Shown here one piece after another: positions 22,588 through 50,090 of a stretch of 64,000 nt of DNA. The stretch lies in UHGV virus genome UHGV-1440165, one strand, 5' to 3'. The number at the start of each line of letters is the position of its first letter. Positions within the stretch are counted from its first letter, which is position 1. The notes beneath the pieces were generated by a model. That model made no database searches. It saw only the letters and a list, made by a program, of their open reading frames with translations, and was not told the origin of the DNA. A program made the position numbers and the translations under genes. The stretch comes from a virus.

Positions 22588-22616
22588 ATAATAGGGCACC
22601 ATTATTGAAGAGTAAA
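22588..22616 (-). promoter_or_regulatory. sigma70-like early promoter TTTACT-N17-TATTAT with AT-rich upstream region
   Basis: Hexamers and spacing read directly; GC hairpin (GGCGGCAACACACCGCC) lies just downstream at predicted transcript 5' end. Confidence 0.55.
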
Positions 22617-43518: not shown

Positions 43519-44025
43519 TTATAGGGTAACAAGTGATACGGTAAAAACCATCGTCCCGTCAGTTGCCATTTTTCTTGAAACTGGTATGACGCGAGGCTGG
43601 CAGAATATCCATTCTTTCTCCATGGACGCCAAGTCCAGCATATCCATTTCTGATTCATCGCCTTTGTTCACAAATTTTTCTAGAGAACCATAGACATTAA
43701 GCCCCTCCGGGAGTCCGTTTCGATGTTTGTAACATATGCGGGCGACAGCTCTGGTTCCATACGATTTAGAAAATTGTTTGGCCACATGCTTCAGTTCACT
43801 GAAGCTAAGACAAGAATCCCATGTCTGAAACATGTCTCCTCGTTCAAACATCATCTCCAAACGCGCAACGTCCTCTTTAGGCAACCCGCGATAAAGTGTG
43901 GTCATCTGCGGTTCGCGTAATTCTCGCACCAGACCACGGATGGCAGGGGAAACAGTGCCAGGGCGCATGATGTGGGACTTATCATGGACGAGGTAAAATA
44001 AATCTTGAATTTGTTGATCGGTCAT
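43519..44025 (-). CDS. mono-ADP-ribosyltransferase, T4 ModA/ModB-like
   Basis: R motif TLYRGLPKE (T4 ModA PLWRGVPAE), S-x-S region DSCLSFSE, ExE-like SMEKEWIF, in ModA order and spacing. Confidence 0.55.
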   Translation of the reverse strand: MTDQQIQDLFYLVHDKSHIMRPGTVSPAIRGLVRELREPQMTTLYRGLPKEDVARLEMMFERGDMFQTWDSCLSFSELKHVAKQFSKSYGTRAVARICYKHRNGLPEGLNVYGSLEKFVNKGDESEMDMLDLASMEKEWIFCQPRVIPVSRKMATDGTMVFTVSLVTL

Positions 44026-44324: not shown

Positions 44325-44375
44325 GATATAATCTTACCTTTCAACCTGGTGAACCCATCGTTCGCCAGTTATTGA

Positions 44376-44404
44376 ATAATAGGACATTCTTTAGAGGAAG
44401 TAAA
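44376..44404 (-). promoter_or_regulatory. sigma70-like early promoter TTTACT-N17-TATTAT
   Basis: Hexamers read directly; follows terminator hairpin. Confidence 0.6.
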
Positions 44405-44421
44405 CCCCTAAAAGTAAAAAT

Positions 44422-44439
44422 CCCCAACAAACGTTGGGG
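44422..44439 (-). terminator. rho-independent terminator (CCCCAACAAACGTTGGGG) followed by U-run on minus strand
   Basis: Perfect 7-bp stem. Confidence 0.6.
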
Positions 44440-44457
44440 ATTTAATAAAAGTTATGC

Positions 44458-44682: not shown

Positions 44683-44731
44683 AATATATACCTTCTTTCA
44701 ACGGACGGGAACGCCCCGCCCTATGAATTCA

Positions 44732-44760
44732 ATAATACGTATTTGCCTTATAGAAGTAAA
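44732..44760 (-). promoter_or_regulatory. sigma70-like early promoter TTTACT-N17-TATTAT
   Basis: Same architecture as 44376..44404. Confidence 0.6.
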
Positions 44761-44777
44761 CCCCTAAAAGTAAAAAT

Positions 44778-44795
44778 CCCCAACGTTTGTTGGGG
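44778..44795 (-). terminator. rho-independent terminator (CCCCAACGTTTGTTGGGG)
   Basis: Same stem as 44422 with reverse-complemented loop. Confidence 0.6.
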
Positions 44796-44802
44796 ACTTC
44801 TG

Positions 44803-45126
44803 TTATTTGCGCAGGGCAACCACGAATTCAGCGAGTTCACCCATGGTCGGGTCATCGCCTTTACTGCCCAGCCAGCCGTCGTCTATTTCGACCTGAAACT
44901 CTTCTTCTAGTTCCATTACGATTTCGATAGCATCCAGTTCATCGCCGCCGAGGTCTTTCTTGGTGCGGAGGCCAGCCAGTTTGTCCAGGGCGTCTTCGTT
45001 TTGAGATGCCACGTCGTCCAGCAGTTTGCGCTTGTCATCGTCGCGCCACAGATCCATATTCAGATTCTCTGTAGCGTACTGAGCCAGGTGTCGCATCACC
45101 TCAACATATGTCGGTTTACTGCTCAT
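44803..45126 (-). CDS. acyl carrier protein homologue lacking the phosphopantetheine-attachment serine
   Basis: DLGGDELDAIEIVMELEEEFQVEIDD versus E. coli ACP [26 protein letters not shown]; the DSL serine is Glu here. Confidence 0.65.
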   Translation of the reverse strand: MSSKPTYVEVMRHLAQYATENLNMDLWRDDDKRKLLDDVASQNEDALDKLAGLRTKKDLGGDELDAIEIVMELEEEFQVEIDDGWLGSKGDDPTMGELAEFVVALRK

Positions 45127-45168
45127 GTCACTTCTCCCAAAGAAGGGCGGGTTGCCCCGCCCGTTGGA

Positions 45169-47397
45169 TTAGATTTTGATCTCTTTCTCTGCCAGTTCGG
45201 CAGTGACCTTGTACTTCACGCCATCCACTTCAACTTCCATGGTTGACTCTTCCAGGTCGAGGTCGGTGAACCAGCCATGGCCAGCAACGATACCATACAC
45301 CACTTTAGACAGCGTCTTGTTCAGGGCGCGGACTTCAGTGATGGCCGCCTTGGCAGCAGCGTCGATCCAGTTTTCGATCAGCTGTTTCTGTACGGCTTCA
45401 GGCACAGCAGTAATAGCCGGGGACTTCACGAATGCGTCGTATTCTTTCAGTGCATTGGCGATGAACATATCACCCGCATTGAGAGCCTTTTTATCAGCAA
45501 TCTTCTTCTGTACCGCAGCGATGGACGGCAGAGAAGACGCCCCGGCGATCTTAACGTTCAGCTCACGGCTCATGTAGACGTCCGTGGAGTCCTTCAGCTC
45601 GGTCTTCGGTGAGAAGCCATAATCGCGGATACCAACACTAGACAGGTATTCTGCGGCCGCAGCGCCGTACTGAATAGCCAGACCTTTGGCATTACCCTTA
45701 CCAACCAGGGCGTCGCGATAGAACTTCAGTACCTTCTGCTTGCCTTTCAGGGCTTCCAGGCGAACGTTGTCGGCAAAGAACTGTGCAGCACTGATGTTCT
45801 TGACCATCGCACGGTTGACCAGCGGTACGCTTTCCAGGTTCAGAATGAACACTTCCGGACCAACGAACACGTGGACGCCCATTTCGATCAACTTCTGCAC
45901 AACTTCGATATCAGCCTTGAACGGCAGGGTCTTCACATTGATGATGCCGTCTTTGACGATGGTGTAGTTGCGCCACTGGAATGTGTCCAATTCTTCGGGT
46001 AGACCGAACTTCTTCTGAGCGAATTCGGGCACCGCCACAGTTCCATGCTGGATTGTACGCACACTGATGTTCGGGCGCTCAGAGTTATAGACCAGGTCGC
46101 TGATTGAGATCACGCCCAGATCGTTAGCAGGTTCAAACGACGGTGTCCACTCTTCGTGCTCAGCCAGCTTGAGAGCGAGGGCTTTACGCTCTTCTTTGGA
46201 CTTGGCGTTCGCGATTTCTTCCGCCAGCTTGTCTTCGGTATCATCGGCTTTCTGCACAGTACCGCGACCAATGCTCTTGTAGGAGAACATCGGGTGCTTG
46301 GTGGCAACAGACACGCCAGCTTCGGCCAGGTACGTCAGCACATCAACGACAGTGGTCGCATCTTCAGCCGGAACCATATTGTAGTCGATACCGTCCACGC
46401 CGCGCAGCTGATCATCAACGATGGCCTGGGTCAGATCAACTTTGATGTTGGAGTAGTCCTGCTTGGTGAAGCAGTTGCTGTACTGTTTGATGAAGCGGAC
46501 GTCGCCCGTTTTCTTCAGCGCAGCCCACACCAGGTCGGCGTCCATGATGTGTACGCCGTAGAACGCCAGCACGTATGCTGCCTGGATGTCCGTCAGCGCA
46601 TCAAGCTGGTCGATCATGTTAGGGTTGACGACCCACAGCTTCGTGACGCTCTCAGGGATGCTCACGTGGCCGATAGGATGGTCTTCATCCGGCTGTACCG
46701 CCAGCACGGTTGCTACGCCGTTTTCAACGTAGATGGCGTGAGTGTACACCACAGGAACGTCAACACGAACCTTCGGCACCGAGGACTTCAACACGTTTTC
46801 CAGCTCAGTCTGATATTCAGTCTGTCCTTCGGCGAACACGTGAGTCGCGCCGGAACGCTCGGACATCTGGGCCAGGAGTTCGCGGTTACAGTACCAGCCG
46901 TATTCGATAAAGGTGATGTTATCGAAAACAAATGGCAAGGTTTCGGCGACGGCCAGGATTTCATTGGAGCGCCAGCAGTTGTCATAACCATCGGTCATGA
47001 ACGCCAGGTTGTTGACGTAGCCGGGTTTCTTCAGGCTACGCGCAGTATCTACCGCGAGACCCAGGGGTTCGACGAAGCCAGTGCAACCGGATGGTTGCAG
47101 GAAGCGGTCGATCAGTTTGTTCAGCTCGCTCAGGTCAGACGCAGCACTGACCTGGCGGCCAGCGAACACAGTACCAAAGTCGCCACGGGATGAGAAGTAC
47201 AGGAGGCTCACTGTGTCTTCCGGTTTCACCAGGGAAGGCAGGTTCTCCTTCAGGTGCTTACGGACTTCAGGGAGCGCCCGGTACATGGAACCGGAAATGT
47301 CCACAACGATTACATGGTTGGACGGGGCAGCAGTCGCAACCGCATTCTTAAACTCCAGGGATTCAATCATCGTTATTGCCTTCTTCAGGGTTGTCAT
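45169..47397 (-). CDS. large von Willebrand factor A (vWA) domain protein
   Basis: N-terminal MIDAS motif VVDISGSM; ~740 aa; start at MTTLKK with GGAAGGTGAGG RBS. Confidence 0.55.
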   Translation of the reverse strand: MTTLKKAITMIESLEFKNAVATAAPSNHVIVVDISGSMYRALPEVRKHLKENLPSLVKPEDTVSLLYFSSRGDFGTVFAGRQVSAASDLSELNKLIDRFLQPSGCTGFVEPLGLAVDTARSLKKPGYVNNLAFMTDGYDNCWRSNEILAVAETLPFVFDNITFIEYGWYCNRELLAQMSERSGATHVFAEGQTEYQTELENVLKSSVPKVRVDVPVVYTHAIYVENGVATVLAVQPDEDHPIGHVSIPESVTKLWVVNPNMIDQLDALTDIQAAYVLAFYGVHIMDADLVWAALKKTGDVRFIKQYSNCFTKQDYSNIKVDLTQAIVDDQLRGVDGIDYNMVPAEDATTVVDVLTYLAEAGVSVATKHPMFSYKSIGRGTVQKADDTEDKLAEEIANAKSKEERKALALKLAEHEEWTPSFEPANDLGVISISDLVYNSERPNISVRTIQHGTVAVPEFAQKKFGLPEELDTFQWRNYTIVKDGIINVKTLPFKADIEVVQKLIEMGVHVFVGPEVFILNLESVPLVNRAMVKNISAAQFFADNVRLEALKGKQKVLKFYRDALVGKGNAKGLAIQYGAAAAEYLSSVGIRDYGFSPKTELKDSTDVYMSRELNVKIAGASSLPSIAAVQKKIADKKALNAGDMFIANALKEYDAFVKSPAITAVPEAVQKQLIENWIDAAAKAAITEVRALNKTLSKVVYGIVAGHGWFTDLDLEESTMEVEVDGVKYKVTAELAEKEIKI

Positions 47398-47550
47398 CGG
47401 CCTCACCTTCCGGATTGACCAGCATGTGTTCAACGAATTCGCGATTCAGCTCAATCTGGCTCATCAGCGCATCCGTCGGAGTAAAGCGGCGGTCGAGGTT
47501 ATCGACACCCGCACGTTTAAATGGTTTGGACATTCCTCGACCTCAAAACA

Positions 47551-47568
47551 GGGGAGTTTCCTCCCCTT
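47551..47568 (-). terminator. rho-independent terminator (AGGGGAGTTTCCTCCCCT)
   Basis: Same hairpin core as 22001..22020. Confidence 0.6.
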
Positions 47569-47574
47569 CAGTTA

Positions 47575-49239
47575 TTAGATTTGTGAGGCCAGTTCTGCCA
47601 CCAGAGGAGCAGCACGAACACGCGCATCTTCCAGAGTCTGAGTGTTGAAGAACTTGCCATCACGGTACACCAGTTGGTGTTGGTTGTCGGCGTCTTGCAC
47701 CTGATCAAAGGTGATGCCGTCAACCAACACTAGTTTACCCTGAGAGTCTTTAATGACTTTAAGGAAACCACGCGCAGACTTTTTAGTCCCGCCTTTGTCG
47801 GTCTTCGGCTCTTTGAAGATCTCGCGGAATTCACCGTTCACCTTACCAGCCGTCGCTTTCACTGCCGTTCCAGTACTGTCACGGGTGTTCATCTGGTAGG
47901 TGTAGGAACCAATACCGAAGACCACGTTAATGGAAGCGAAGTTCCGGCCAGCCAGACGACCAAAGATCTGGTCTTCACGTGCCAATGTGATAGAGTCACC
48001 GTAGATCAGACCGATGTGATCGTCCAACAGGAAGTGGCCAGTCTCAGTTTGAGTACCGCCAAAGATCTCCCACAGGCGCTGAATAGAGCCGACTGCTTCA
48101 GAACGGCTGATGATATTACTGTCGTCTGCCATCAGAGAGTTGATCGTACCTTCGCCTGTGATCAGGTGATAGGTGTTCGTCTCTTCGATGTGGATGACTT
48201 CGGTGCTGCTGGACACGCCGCTGATGTTCAGCATAGCGCGGTCTTTGAACCCCTCGATGCGGTAGCCGCCGACGATGTGAACTGGGTCGCCAGAGTCAGG
48301 GCGGATCACGACTTTGCCGTTGCGTGCCATGATAATGTCTTTCAGGCGAGGGAGATAGTCGTCGATGACCTGCCAATAGTCCCACGCATCCGACACAATG
48401 CTGACGATGCCATCAGGATACACGTCCTGCACCAGGCGACGGAAGGTTTCGAATTCTCCATTCTTCGTACCCATGCACATCACGGCGTGTTCGGTGGCTG
48501 CAACGGAGCCAGCAACGACATAGTCTTCATCGATATCCGCGCCGTAATACTCTTCAACGAAGTCCAGGGCAGGGTTGGTGTCAGTGCCTTTGAAGAACAC
48601 CAGATGGCCAGAACCGGAAGACGCCGCGTCATGCCATCCGCTCATACCACGGAAGGAGAAGTCGTGGCCTTGGTAATCGATGAACCAATGGTCCGGTGAC
48701 ACGCCTGTGGCGATAGCGGCTTTCACCATCAGTGCCTTGTAATGCAGGGCGATGGTGGCGTTCGTCATGGGCTTCCAGATCTCAGAGCTGAACACAGTCT
48801 CCAGATAGTTGGTCAGCCAGTAGAACTCCGGCAAGGTGTTGAACATCACATACACCGGAACGCCATACGGGCACATGGTGCCTTCGGGTAGAGCACGGAC
48901 TTCGATAGGCAGATAACCGAGGTCATGCAGGGCTTCGATATGCTCTGTGCCAACACGACCTGGACCCAGTACTTTGTTCATGCGACGGGCATACTTCTTC
49001 AACACCTTGGCCTTCGGGCGCTGGAAGAACGCTTCGTCAAACAGTTCGTGGAACCAGGTCATGAAACCCTGGATGCCCCAGACCACCACGCCGTTCTTCG
49101 GCAGGTGAGAGTTGAATAATTTGTTGGAACGCGGAGTCCCGTTGGAGAACACCAGCTCACTACCTTCAGGGAACTGATAGATGTGCCCTGATTTGTAGAA
49201 GTCGATTGCATGAATTGGGTCTAAGTGGCGCATGCTCAT
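47575..49239 (-). CDS. nicotinamide phosphoribosyltransferase-family enzyme (NadV/NAMPT-like; candidate NARP1 Namat)
   Basis: Full-length NAMPT-like sequence (554 aa) read from the translation; no single motif checked. Confidence 0.75.
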   Translation of the reverse strand: MSMRHLDPIHAIDFYKSGHIYQFPEGSELVFSNGTPRSNKLFNSHLPKNGVVVWGIQGFMTWFHELFDEAFFQRPKAKVLKKYARRMNKVLGPGRVGTEHIEALHDLGYLPIEVRALPEGTMCPYGVPVYVMFNTLPEFYWLTNYLETVFSSEIWKPMTNATIALHYKALMVKAAIATGVSPDHWFIDYQGHDFSFRGMSGWHDAASSGSGHLVFFKGTDTNPALDFVEEYYGADIDEDYVVAGSVAATEHAVMCMGTKNGEFETFRRLVQDVYPDGIVSIVSDAWDYWQVIDDYLPRLKDIIMARNGKVVIRPDSGDPVHIVGGYRIEGFKDRAMLNISGVSSSTEVIHIEETNTYHLITGEGTINSLMADDSNIISRSEAVGSIQRLWEIFGGTQTETGHFLLDDHIGLIYGDSITLAREDQIFGRLAGRNFASINVVFGIGSYTYQMNTRDSTGTAVKATAGKVNGEFREIFKEPKTDKGGTKKSARGFLKVIKDSQGKLVLVDGITFDQVQDADNQHQLVYRDGKFFNTQTLEDARVRAAPLVAELASQI

Positions 49240-50090
49240 TTTACACGTCCTGTATTTTCAGTTTTGAAAGGAAGACCGTCGGCGGTGATGTTCTCCCACC
49301 AGACAGTGTCGGCATACACAGCATCGTAGATCCCGTCGAAAACAGAGAGACCTTTGCTGAAGATGCCATGGGTAACGAAGAGCGTCATGTGCTTAGGCTT
49401 GTGCTTCTGAAGCTCTTTACCCAGCTCAACAAACGTGCGCCCACCGTCGCAGATATCATCAACCACAACCAGATAGCGGTCTTTGATCAGTTCAGGGTTT
49501 GTAATACTCACCCCAATGATTTCACCAGTCTTGGTGTCACGGTTCTTGTGTCCGTAGACAACAGGAACGCCATCCAATGACAGGCTGAGGGTTTCGGTCT
49601 TCTTCGCCGCGCCGCCGTCAGGGGCTACCAGCACAGCATTGTTCCCACGGATGAACCAGCCCAGATACTGGCGCACGATGTGATCTTGTGGGACCACATG
49701 GACGTTGTTGATCAGGGAAGACACAACATGGCTGTGAGGGTCTTTGATCGCCACGCGGTCAAAGTTCATGTTGTTGATGAACTCAGCCGCCCACTTCACG
49801 GACAGAGGCTCGCCGAAGTCGCAATGGCGGTCCTGGCGAGCATACGGGAAGTAAGGGATATACGCATGGAAGGTAGTCAGACGGTCCACGTTACCCAGGC
49901 CGCGCACGGCGTTTACCAGAAGCGCCAGCTCAATGAAGTCGGCTGATGATTTGATGTGAGCATCAATCACCACGTTCTGGACGTGACCGACAGGGATGCC
50001 AGCCTTTTGGATCTTGATATGTTCCTCACCACCTGGGAAGGTGAAGTGCTTGTAGAACACATCTTGGTCGTTCAATTTCAAACGAAACAT
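49236..50090 (-). CDS. ribose-phosphate pyrophosphokinase-family enzyme (Prs-like; candidate NARP1 Adps)
   Basis: PRPP-binding motif VVVDDICDGGRT; 284 aa; ATGA-coupled to NAMPT-like gene. Confidence 0.75.
   Translation of the reverse strand: MFRLKLNDQDVFYKHFTFPGGEEHIKIQKAGIPVGHVQNVVIDAHIKSSADFIELALLVNAVRGLGNVDRLTTFHAYIPYFPYARQDRHCDFGEPLSVKWAAEFINNMNFDRVAIKDPHSHVVSSLINNVHVVPQDHIVRQYLGWFIRGNNAVLVAPDGGAAKKTETLSLSLDGVPVVYGHKNRDTKTGEIIGVSITNPELIKDRYLVVVDDICDGGRTFVELGKELQKHKPKHMTLFVTHGIFSKGLSVFDGIYDAVYADTVWWENITADGLPFKTENTGRVK

What the first reader, a model, noticed from the sequence alone, without database searches (positions are those of the whole stretch)
44803..45126. Acyl carrier protein homologue with the phosphopantetheine serine replaced by glutamate
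The protein aligns closely with helix II of bacterial ACP (DLGGDELDAIEIVMELEEEF vs [20 protein letters not shown]), but the invariant Ser of the DSL motif is Glu, so it cannot carry a prosthetic group. A phage ACP look-alike locked in an apo-like or acidic mimic state could titrate ACP-binding host proteins, or act as an acidic decoy. It sits between a duplicated terminator-promoter cassette and the vWA gene.
Basis: partly seen in the sequence, partly recalled or inferred. Interest (0 to 1): 0.6.

Follow-up and report, generated by a model that had tools for sequence, protein, structure and literature searches.

The report
Serine-less acyl carrier protein look-alike
A small phage gene annotated as "acyl carrier protein" encodes a protein that keeps the carrier's acidic docking helix but always has glutamate or aspartate where the cofactor-bearing serine should be, so it cannot carry anything and most likely works only by binding other proteins.

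Summary
Window 44803..45126 (-) encodes a 107-aa acyl carrier protein (ACP) homologue: Pfam PP-binding scores above its threshold, and 17 of 27 residues match E. coli AcpP helix II. Glu63 sits where the phosphopantetheine (Ppant) serine should be. The window comes from an Ackermannviridae phage, 95.8% identical to Salmonella phage pertopsoe.

- **Conservation:** among 37 distinct helix-II sequences of the family, reaching Erwinia Bue1- and Serratia 3M-type phages, the position is Glu (30) or Asp (7) and never Ser.
- **Selection:** dN/dS against close relatives is 0.04-0.10.
- **No modifying enzyme:** no AcpS-type transferase turns up in any Ackermannviridae record.
- **Context:** the gene lies directly after a 733-aa vWA protein with an intact MIDAS metal site. 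Related vWA genes in T4-like and jumbo phages have no ACP-like neighbour. Glu-type ACP look-alikes also occur in an unrelated phage contig without a vWA gene.

It is a non-carrier "pseudo-ACP". My best guess, about 0.35, is that it competes with host AcpP for AcpP-binding proteins. A partnership with the phage vWA protein is the main rival, about 0.25. Neither was tested. GenBank and PHROGs name it "acyl carrier protein"; the papers I could search did not mention the missing serine. I rate it a new variant of a known kind, of moderate interest.

The parts
44803..45126 (-). Coding sequence of the 107-aa ACP-fold protein without the Ppant serine (pseudo-ACP)
   Evidence: ORF. Pfam PP-binding 26.5 bits above the 20.8 cut-off. 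PHROG 4154 E 3.9e-57. AF2 model pLDDT 76.9; its best Foldseek PDB matches are ACPs but weak, E 0.2 or worse, TM 0.5-0.7. The BFVD ViI 'acyl carrier protein' model matches at TM 0.84. dN/dS 0.04-0.10.
44938..44940 (-). GAA codon for Glu63, at the position of the Ppant-bearing Ser36 of E. coli AcpP
   Evidence: Alignments. Across 37 distinct family helix-II cores the residue is E 30, D 7, S 0.
44896..44958 (-). Residues 57-77, KDLGGDELDAIEIVMELEEEF, the helix II 'recognition helix' region
   Evidence: 17/27 identical to AcpP. D62, L64, E68, M71, E74 and D83 are invariant in an alignment that spans the whole family and E. coli AcpP.
45131..45138 (-). Shine-Dalgarno-like GGGAGAAG, 4 nt before the ATG
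   Evidence: Read from the sequence.
45145..45162 (-). GC-rich hairpin (7 bp, GCAA loop) followed by TTCTTT, between the vWA stop and the ACP-like start; terminator- or attenuator-like
   Evidence: A hairpin is present at this place, with different stem sequences, in all related loci where the ACP-like gene directly follows the vWA gene. A similar hairpin precedes the 56-aa ORF.
45169..47370 (-). 733-aa vWA protein, the upstream neighbour (alternative ATG at 47397; the mechanical ORF runs to 47433)
47363..47533 (-). 56-aa acidic-tailed ORF that overlaps the vWA start by 8 nt
   Evidence: PHROG 8656. A small ORF is present before the vWA gene in L002-L004 and L006.
44777..44796 (-). Intrinsic-terminator hairpin that ends the unit just after the ACP-like stop; first copy of the duplicated cassette
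44732..44760 (-). Promoter-like TTTACT-N17-TATTAT for the next gene; not part of the ACP-like unit
   Evidence: 3 copies in the window against 0.01 expected.

Best explanation
The gene encodes a pseudo-ACP: a protein with the ACP four-helix sequence signature and AcpP's acidic recognition helix II, but with a carboxylate (Glu, sometimes Asp) fixed where the Ppant serine should be. It cannot be loaded with the prosthetic group, so it is not a carrier and must act by protein-protein binding. The mechanism I commit to is this. It is a non-modifiable look-alike of host AcpP, probably made with the neighbouring takeover-type genes (expression timing was not measured). It docks through helix II onto the basic ACP-binding site of one or more host AcpP clients that recognise the protein surface rather than the acyl chain. 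Candidates are AcpS, PlsB, MukB and SpoT. It either occupies or mis-activates them. The carboxylate keeps the N-terminus of helix II capped and supplies the negative charge that the Ppant phosphodiester gives in holo-ACP. Shown here: ACP homology, absence of Ser, family-wide conservation, purifying selection, and absence of a phage AcpS. Inferred: any binding to a host client, and which one. My confidence is about 0.85 that it is a non-carrier binding module and about 0.35 that the target is a host AcpP client.
For: - **ACP homology with Glu63 opposite Ser36:**
- **Conservation:** E or D and never S in 37 distinct family cores, including divergent Bue1- and 3M-type phages.
- **Selection:** dN/dS 0.04-0.10.
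- **Helix II stays AcpP-like:** D35, L37, D38, E41, M44, E47 and D56 equivalents remain invariant or nearly so in members only 33-48% identical overall. That is easier to explain by a fixed host target than by a freely co-evolving phage partner.
- **Closest family:** the best NCBIfam model is the FAS-type AcpP equivalog, not a peptidyl-carrier or DltC model.
- **Charge:** net charge -14 and pI 4.3, like AcpP.
- **No carrier machinery:** no AcpS homologue in any Ackermannviridae record and no acyl-loading enzymes nearby.
- **Independent of vWA elsewhere:** Glu-type AcpP look-alikes (P0052, P0055, P0056, P0315) exist outside the family, and the one examined sits in an unrelated phage-like contig without vWA.
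- **Neighbourhood:** other takeover-type genes lie close by, namely a Mod-like ADP-ribosyltransferase and NAMPT plus a PRS-like gene.
- **Feasibility:** MukB binds and is activated equally by apo- and holo-AcpP (PMC8602292). Apo-ACP is growth-inhibitory in E. coli through PlsB (my recollection of Keating, Carey and Cronan, 1995; not checked here).
Against: - No host partner is identified; everything about the target is inference.
- The protein differs from AcpP outside helix II. It has a roughly 27-residue insert after helix I. A conserved Trp/DDPT loop lies where AcpP has helix III. These could prevent binding to AcpP clients.
- An acidic helix II could equally serve a phage-encoded basic partner.
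- Glu or Asp at a helix N-terminus is also the structurally conservative way to lose the serine, so the carboxylate need not mimic anything.
- The gene is strictly linked to the vWA gene within the family.
- Host AcpP is very abundant, about 100 uM according to PMC8602292. A competitor would need high expression or higher affinity.
Confidence: 0.35

Rival explanations
1. It is a dedicated partner of the phage's own vWA protein. The exposed carboxylate at the tip of helix II completes the metal coordination of the vWA MIDAS site, as Glu or Asp of integrin, anthrax-receptor or Rea1 ligands do. The acidic helix would pack against the surrounding surface.
For: The ACP-like gene lies directly downstream of the vWA gene, on the same strand with 42-43 nt spacing, in the window, CRW-SP2, four divergent metagenomic contigs and Erwinia Bue1. 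It is one gene away in Serratia 3M-type phages. The flanking genes vary across these loci, with NAMPT/PRS and the small ORF present or absent. The vWA MIDAS motif DxSxS...T...D is intact and conserved. Either Glu or Asp is accepted, and never an uncharged residue.
Against: - vWA homologues at 29-49% identity in T4-like and jumbo phages have no ACP-like gene within 2.5 kb.
- One contig, L035, has a vWA homologue at 66% identity and also lacks it nearby.
- A Glu-type look-alike occurs without vWA.
- Only 6 positions of the vWA protein separate ACP-plus from ACP-minus phages, and none is on the MIDAS loops.
- The apparently frequent E/D differences among family members are unusual for a fixed metal-ligand geometry (my inference).
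- Whole-region collinearity in this family weakens adjacency as evidence.
- A search for the same pairing in 63 bacterial Ser-less ACP loci found none, and there is a single case, L090.
Confidence: 0.25
2. It is a general acidic decoy or chaperone unrelated to ACP biology, for example a DNA or polyanion mimic or a holder of basic phage proteins. The ACP fold would merely be a convenient acidic scaffold.
For: Net charge -14 and pI 4.3. Ser-less ACP-fold proteins have arisen repeatedly in other settings, including secreted lipoproteins of Planctomycetota and Verrucomicrobiota and a Vibrio phage domain with Ser replaced by Asn.
Against: Conservation is concentrated on specific positions (helix II, R54/K56, W85, DDPT) rather than on overall charge. 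AcpP itself is just as acidic. No resemblance to known DNA mimics was found.
Confidence: 0.12
3. It is still a carrier, modified at a non-canonical residue or by a non-canonical enzyme.
For: Only the annotation 'acyl carrier protein'. Thr94 is invariant within the family.
Against: No Ser at the attachment site in any member. No AcpS in these phages. No acyl-loading, FAS, PKS or NRPS genes nearby. The score is below the AcpP equivalog cut-off. To my knowledge, known phosphopantetheinyl transferases act on the Ser at the N-terminus of helix II.
Confidence: 0.03
4. It is a decaying remnant of a captured host acpP with no present function.
For: Loss of the catalytic serine is what a pseudogene-like relic would show.
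Against: An intact ORF of constant length is found in 271-274 phage records. dN/dS is 0.04-0.10. There are family-specific invariant residues. A peptide was detected in a Sajous1 proteome (PMC10892097).
Confidence: 0.02

Closest known systems
Bacterial FAS-type acyl carrier protein AcpP (PF00550; TIGR00517)
   Same: Sequence signature of the ACP fold, acidic helix II with D35, L37, D38, E41, M44, E47 and D56 equivalents, similar charge, and AcpP-type rather than peptidyl-carrier type.
   Different: Glu or Asp replaces the Ppant serine. It has a roughly 27-residue insert after helix I in most members. A conserved W-x-G...DDPT loop sits where helix III lies. It scores 34.5 bits against the 70.45 equivalog cut-off. 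No FAS genes are nearby.
Plasmodium falciparum mitochondrial ACP (mACP), a Ser-less ACP that works without Ppant (PMC8547962)
   Same: An ACP homologue that has lost the serine, is retained under selection, and functions purely by protein binding. In mACP the substituting residue itself contributes to the interface with the partner Isd11.
   Different: mACP has Phe at the site and binds a LYR-motif protein, Isd11-Nfs1. The phage protein has a carboxylate and no known partner. The authors of that paper found Ser-less ACPs only in Apicomplexa and Vitrella. Phage and bacterial cases are therefore outside what they described.
PHROG 4154 / GenBank 'acyl carrier protein' of ViI-like phages (e.g. ViI E1XTD1, pertopsoe YP_009888992)
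   Same: This is the same protein family: E 3.9e-57, and TM 0.84 to the ViI model.
   Different: The name implies a carrier function that the sequence rules out. No paper found in the searchable library comments on the missing serine.
Apo-ACP as an inhibitor, and Ppant-independent AcpP clients (PlsB, AcpS, MukB)
   Same: A Ser-less AcpP look-alike is permanently 'apo'. MukB binds apo- and holo-AcpP equally (PMC8602292). Apo-ACP overproduction inhibits E. coli growth (from memory, Keating et al. 1995).
   Different: No interaction of the phage protein with any of these was tested. The Glu adds a charge that apo-ACP lacks.
Acidic-residue ligands of vWA/MIDAS domains (integrin I-domain ligands, Rea1-UBL, CbbO-Rubisco)
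   Same: An exposed Glu or Asp on a small partner next to a gene for a vWA protein with an intact MIDAS site.
   Different: This is an analogy from general knowledge only. The two genes are not co-distributed outside Ackermannviridae, and there is no MIDAS-face adaptation in ACP-plus phages.

Membership tests
Acyl carrier protein (functional Ppant carrier, PF00550 / AcpP) | Sequence match to the PP-binding / ACP four-helix domain | tested here: met
   PF00550 26.5 bits against a 20.8 cut-off. PDB ACPs at E 5e-6. The AF2 model's best Foldseek matches are ACPs, though weak, E 0.2 or worse.
Acyl carrier protein (functional Ppant carrier, PF00550 / AcpP) | Conserved serine of the D-S-L motif at the N-terminus of helix II (the Ppant attachment site) | tested here: not met
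   Glu63 aligns with Ser36. The family has E 30, D 7, S 0.
Acyl carrier protein (functional Ppant carrier, PF00550 / AcpP) | Score above the NCBIfam AcpP equivalog cut-off (TIGR00517, 70.45 bits) | tested here: not met
   34.5 bits, matching helix II only.
Acyl carrier protein (functional Ppant carrier, PF00550 / AcpP) | Cognate phosphopantetheinyl transferase or acyl-loading/FAS/PKS/NRPS genes in the genome or neighbourhood | tested here: not met
The neighbours are vWA, NAMPT, a PRS-like gene, an ADP-ribosyltransferase and hypothetical genes. Sfp-type transferases were not searched.
Acyl carrier protein (functional Ppant carrier, PF00550 / AcpP) | Covalent 4'-phosphopantetheine on the protein in vivo | not testable with these tools
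   Needs intact-mass spectrometry or an AcpS/Sfp labelling assay.
Ppant-independent pseudo-ACP (type case: Plasmodium mACP) | ACP homologue that lacks the serine yet is kept under purifying selection | tested here: met
   the precedent is.
Ppant-independent pseudo-ACP (type case: Plasmodium mACP) | Defined protein partner bound through the surface around the substituted residue | not testable with these tools
   No multimer prediction or model coordinates were available, and no interaction data were found in the papers searched.
vWA/MIDAS protein with an acidic-residue ligand pair | Adjacent vWA protein with an intact MIDAS motif | tested here: met
   DxSxS, T97 and D127 are conserved.
vWA/MIDAS protein with an acidic-residue ligand pair | Co-distribution of the two genes across phages | tested here: inconclusive
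   They are always linked within Ackermannviridae-type loci. The vWA gene occurs without an ACP-like gene in T4-like and jumbo phages and in L035. An ACP-like (Glu) gene occurs without vWA in L088.
vWA/MIDAS protein with an acidic-residue ligand pair | Physical contact of Glu63 with the MIDAS metal | not testable with these tools
   Only single-chain predictions without coordinates were available.

The most novel reading that the evidence does not exclude
Ser-to-Glu/Asp ACP look-alikes are a previously unrecognised class of viral host-takeover proteins. On this reading they are permanently unloadable mimics of the hub protein AcpP that jam a Ppant-independent AcpP client. Examples would be the MukBEF chromosome-organising complex, AcpS or PlsB. 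Ackermannviridae and at least one unrelated phage lineage appear to have hit on the same design independently.
Probability: 0.25. Interest if true: 0.75.

Novelty: new variant of a known kind. Interest (0 to 1): 0.5.

Why it matters
AcpP is one of the most connected and abundant proteins in bacteria, and no viral mimic of it has been described in the literature I could search. Here a gene carried by several hundred sequenced Ackermannviridae genomes, many of them Salmonella, E. coli and Klebsiella phages, bears a name that implies a function its sequence excludes. If the protein competes with host AcpP, it would be a natural probe for ACP-client interfaces such as AcpS, PlsB and MukB, which are antibiotic targets, and a new host-takeover mechanism. 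If it instead pairs with the vWA protein, it would give a first handle on a large vWA family of unknown function in big phages. At minimum, the annotation 'acyl carrier protein' (PHROG 4154, RefSeq) should read 'ACP-like protein lacking the Ppant serine'.

Tried and rejected
- **Recurrent pairing of Ser-less ACPs with vWA in bacteria.** One environmental contig, L090, has a lipoprotein-type DEL ACP-like gene near a YfbK-type vWA gene. A genome scan then recovered 63 bacterial loci with D[ED]LD-type ACP-likes. Jackhmmer with both vWA queries found no vWA neighbour in any of them. The idea was dropped.
- **vWA adaptation to an ACP partner.** Comparing vWA proteins of ACP-plus and ACP-minus phages gave only 6 group-specific positions, none on the MIDAS loops. 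This gives no support.
- **The hairpin before the ACP-like gene as a special regulator.** It is conserved with compensatory changes. A similar hairpin precedes the 56-aa ORF, so this looks like a general intercistronic feature of the operon.
- **Literature.** Seven searches found no study of this protein, of phage ACP mimics or of expression timing in Kuttervirus. One search was uninformative.
- **dN/dS for distant pairs** (for example L006). The value is meaningless because the sequences are saturated and not aligned; only close pairs were used.

Full report
**1. What is there**

The minus strand of the window carries an ATG-initiated ORF at 44803..45126 that encodes 107 aa. A GGGAGAAG ribosome-binding site lies 4 nt upstream of the start, at 45131..45138. 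The protein matches Pfam PP-binding above the curated threshold: 26.5 bits against 20.8, E 7.9e-6. It matches PHROG 4154 'acyl carrier protein' at E 3.9e-57. It also matches solved ACP structures, with B. subtilis ACP at E 4.6e-6 and all 60 listed matches being ACPs.

BLASTP against E. coli AcpP aligns residues 57-83 with AcpP 31-57, 17 of 27 identical, and puts Glu63 opposite Ser36. The codon is GAA at 44938..44940.
- **Downstream:** two near-identical terminator-plus-promoter-like cassettes.
- **Upstream:** a vWA gene.

**2. Origin of the window**

The region is 95.8% identical to Salmonella phage pertopsoe (Ackermannviridae, Kuttervirus). It matches 181 Ackermannviridae-type records in all. 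In these records the gene is annotated either 'acyl carrier protein' or 'hypothetical protein'. tblastn finds the protein in 274 phage records from Salmonella, Klebsiella, Escherichia, Dickeya, Shigella, Serratia, Enterobacter and Yersinia phages.

**3. Is the Ser-to-Glu change conserved?**

Yes, completely. All 41 clusters of homologues have Glu at the position, or Asp in a few. A profile search of 1.84 billion representative proteins found seven more distant full-length relatives, P0042-P0047 and P0049, at 33-48% identity. All have DEL or DDL.

Two still more divergent members also have Glu:
- an un-annotated ORF in Erwinia phage Bue1, with 'MDELD';
- a 90-aa version in Serratia 3M-type phages, with 'FDELD'.

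In total, 37 distinct helix-II cores give E 30, D 7 and S 0. The scatter of Asp among otherwise Glu-bearing relatives suggests several independent E/D switches. What appears to be selected is a carboxylate, not a particular side-chain length.

The gene is under strong purifying selection, with dN/dS of 0.04-0.10 against close relatives. One peptide was reported in a Sajous1 proteome (PMC10892097).

**4. Anatomy of the protein**

The AF2 model (pLDDT 76.9) has these elements:

| Residues | Element |
|---|---|
| 7-21 | helix I |
| 30-40 and 44-51 | two extra short helices |
| 63-77 | helix II |
| 78-94 | long loop |
| 95-105 | C-terminal helix |

An alignment with canonical ACPs shows a roughly 27-residue insert after helix I. 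The 3M-type protein and P0052/55/56 lack this insert. A conserved W85-x-G87...D91-D92-P93-T94 loop sits where AcpP has helix III.

Across the whole family and E. coli AcpP, D62, L64, E68, M71, E74 and D83 are invariant. D65 and I81 are nearly so. These are AcpP residues D35, L37, E41, M44, E47, D56, D38 and I54.

The best NCBIfam model is the FAS-type AcpP equivalog TIGR00517, at 34.5 bits against a cut-off of 70.45. The protein is thus AcpP-derived but not an AcpP. Net charge is -14 and pI 4.3, close to AcpP.

Foldseek matches of the model to PDB ACPs are weak: E 0.2 or worse, TM 0.5-0.7. The match to the ViI protein in the viral structure library is strong: TM 0.84, E 3e-8. Fold assignment therefore rests mainly on the sequence statistics.

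**5. Not a carrier**

- There is no serine at the attachment site (section 3).
- The neighbours are not acyl-loading, FAS, PKS or NRPS genes.

**6. Genomic context**

The gene order on the minus strand is:

| Order | Gene or element | Window position |
|---|---|---|
| 1 | PRS-like gene | 49236..50090 |
| 2 | NAMPT | 47575..49239 |
| 3 | 56-aa acidic-tailed ORF | 47363..47533 |
| 4 | 733-aa vWA protein | 45169..47370 |
| 5 | ACP-like gene | 44803..45126 |
| 6 | strong terminator | 44777..44796 |

A Mod/Alt-like ADP-ribosyltransferase follows a few genes further on, at 43519..44025.

A GC-rich hairpin with a U-rich tail sits between the vWA stop and the ACP-like ribosome-binding site, at 45145..45162. 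A hairpin is present at the same place, with different stem sequences (compensatory changes), in all related loci where the ACP-like gene directly follows the vWA gene. A similar hairpin precedes the 56-aa ORF. I read these as general intercistronic terminator- or stabiliser-like elements rather than something specific to this gene.

**7. Linkage to the vWA gene**

In every Ackermannviridae-type locus examined, the ACP-like gene directly follows the vWA gene. This holds for pertopsoe, CRW-SP2, four divergent metagenomic contigs, Bue1 and 19 IMG/VR genomes. In 3M-type phages it lies one gene away. The flanks vary across these loci.

The vWA family is much wider, however. Homologues at 29-49% identity in T4-like phages (Yersinia JC221, Shewanella Thanatos-1 and others) and in jumbo-phage contigs have no ACP-like gene within 2.5 kb. 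One contig, L035, has a vWA homologue at 66% identity and also lacks it nearby.

Conversely, Glu-type ACP look-alikes with the same 'DDP' loop motif exist outside the family (P0052, P0055, P0056, P0315). P0056 lies in a phage-like contig with ThyX and an HNH endonuclease. That contig shares only this one gene with the window and has no vWA gene.

Only six positions of the vWA protein separate ACP-plus from ACP-minus phages, and none lies on the MIDAS loops.

**8. Mechanism**

*What is shown.* The protein is a conserved, selected, AcpP-derived fold that cannot take the prosthetic group. It therefore acts through its surface.

*What is inferred.* The identity of the partner. I favour, at about 0.35, a competitor or decoy of host AcpP, for four reasons:
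- The AcpP-type recognition residues of helix II are held constant over a depth of divergence at which the rest of the protein has largely changed.
- The same Ser-to-Glu design appears in an unrelated phage contig.
- The gene lies among takeover-type genes.
- Host clients exist that bind AcpP independently of Ppant. MukB is one (PMC8602292). From memory, apo-ACP also inhibits PlsB and is the substrate of AcpS.

The carboxylate would cap helix II and place a negative charge where holo-ACP has its phosphodiester.

The main rival, at about 0.25, is that the protein serves the adjacent vWA protein, with Glu63 as the acidic MIDAS ligand. This is attractive mechanistically and supported by the tight linkage. 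It is weakened by the distribution data, by the lack of vWA adaptation and by the apparent E/D toggling.

Lesser rivals are a generic acidic decoy (0.12), a non-canonical carrier (0.03) and a relic (0.02).

**9. Comparison with what is known**

The closest functional precedent is the Ser-less mitochondrial ACP of Plasmodium. There Phe replaces Ser and itself contacts the partner Isd11. The authors of that paper reported no Ser-less ACPs outside Apicomplexa and Vitrella (PMC8547962).

The phage protein passes the fold test for ACP. It fails the defining serine test, the AcpP equivalog score and the pathway-context test. It should not be filed as an acyl carrier protein.

Seven literature searches found nothing on this protein's missing serine or on viral ACP mimics.

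**10. Verdict**

- **Observation:** confirmed.
partly supported. The non-carrier status is solid, but the host-decoy role is plausible and untested.
- **Novelty:** a new variant of a known kind. It is a viral, carboxylate-substituted pseudo-ACP in a family that databases label as a carrier.
- **Interest:** 0.5. It is a clean, experimentally tractable oddity in a phage family widely represented in sequence collections, but its function is unresolved.

Noticed in passing
L090-L153 (genome contigs); proteins P0090, P0093, P0114, P0116, P0128, P0130, P0154, P0158, P0160: Bacteria, mostly Planctomycetota, Verrucomicrobiota and Acidobacteriota, encode ACP-like proteins with D[ED]LD in place of DSLD. 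Many have lipoprotein-type signal peptides, so they appear to be exported ACP folds that could never meet CoA or AcpS. They sit in heterogeneous, apparently stand-alone contexts with no recurrent vWA neighbour.
   Followed up: partly
L154 2980..3513 (Vibrio phage 277E43-1, CAH9013490): A 177-aa hypothetical protein has an N-terminal ACP-like domain in which the serine is Asn ('LGFDNLD'). This is another independent Ser-less ACP fold in a phage. By contrast, the ACP-like ORFs of Xanthomonas phage phiXF1 and of a faecal phage contig keep DSL.
   Followed up: partly
L007 6313..6612 (Erwinia phage vB_EamM-Bue1, MG973030): An un-annotated ORF of about 99 aa directly after the vWA gene encodes a divergent ACP-like protein with 'MDELD'. 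The record leaves a 440-nt gap there.
   Followed up: yes
window 45145..45162 (-) and about 47553..47568 (-): GC-rich hairpins with tetraloops (GCAA, GAAA) and U-rich tails sit between cistrons, immediately before the ribosome-binding sites of the ACP-like gene and of the 56-aa ORF. The first is conserved, with compensatory stem changes, in loci from 20 or more related phages. They may be leaky terminators or mRNA-stabilising elements.
   Followed up: partly
window 45169..47370 (-): The 733-aa vWA protein (PHROG 2426, unknown function) belongs to a large family. The family is also found in T4-like phages of Yersinia, Shewanella, Pectobacterium and Pantoea and on jumbo-phage contigs up to 512 kb. 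Its N-terminal 290 residues resemble the vWA-plus-beta-sandwich core of Sec23/24, ArnB and ITIH. The C-terminal 440 residues match nothing solved.
   Followed up: partly
window 43519..44025 (-): A 168-aa ORF matches the C-terminal part of the PHROG 832 'RNA polymerase ADP-ribosylase' profile. Its homologue in L006 carries PF26816 Mod_ADP_RT. It is a Mod/Alt-like ADP-ribosyltransferase close to the NAD+ salvage genes.
   Followed up: no
window 47575..49239 (-) and 49236..50090 (-): A NAMPT-type nicotinamide phosphoribosyltransferase and a PRS-like phosphoribosyltransferase overlap by 4 nt, forming an NAD+ salvage pair. The pair is present upstream of the vWA gene in some family members and absent in others, such as CRW-SP2 and L004.
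   Followed up: no
window 44365..44450 and 44721..44806 (-); also 22588..22616 (-): The two terminator-promoter cassettes are near-identical over about 45 nt, but the hairpin loop is inverted between the copies (GTTT against AAAC). A third exact TTTACT-N17-TATTAT site lies at 22588..22616 without the same hairpin.
   Followed up: partly
L035 4714..6530 (IMG/VR contig 2974606305): In this phage the vWA homologue is 66% identical, but the gene is followed by a 285-aa ORF and an HNH-like ORF with 'EEFREK' repeats instead of the ACP-like gene. This may be an insertion that displaced or replaced it.
   Followed up: no
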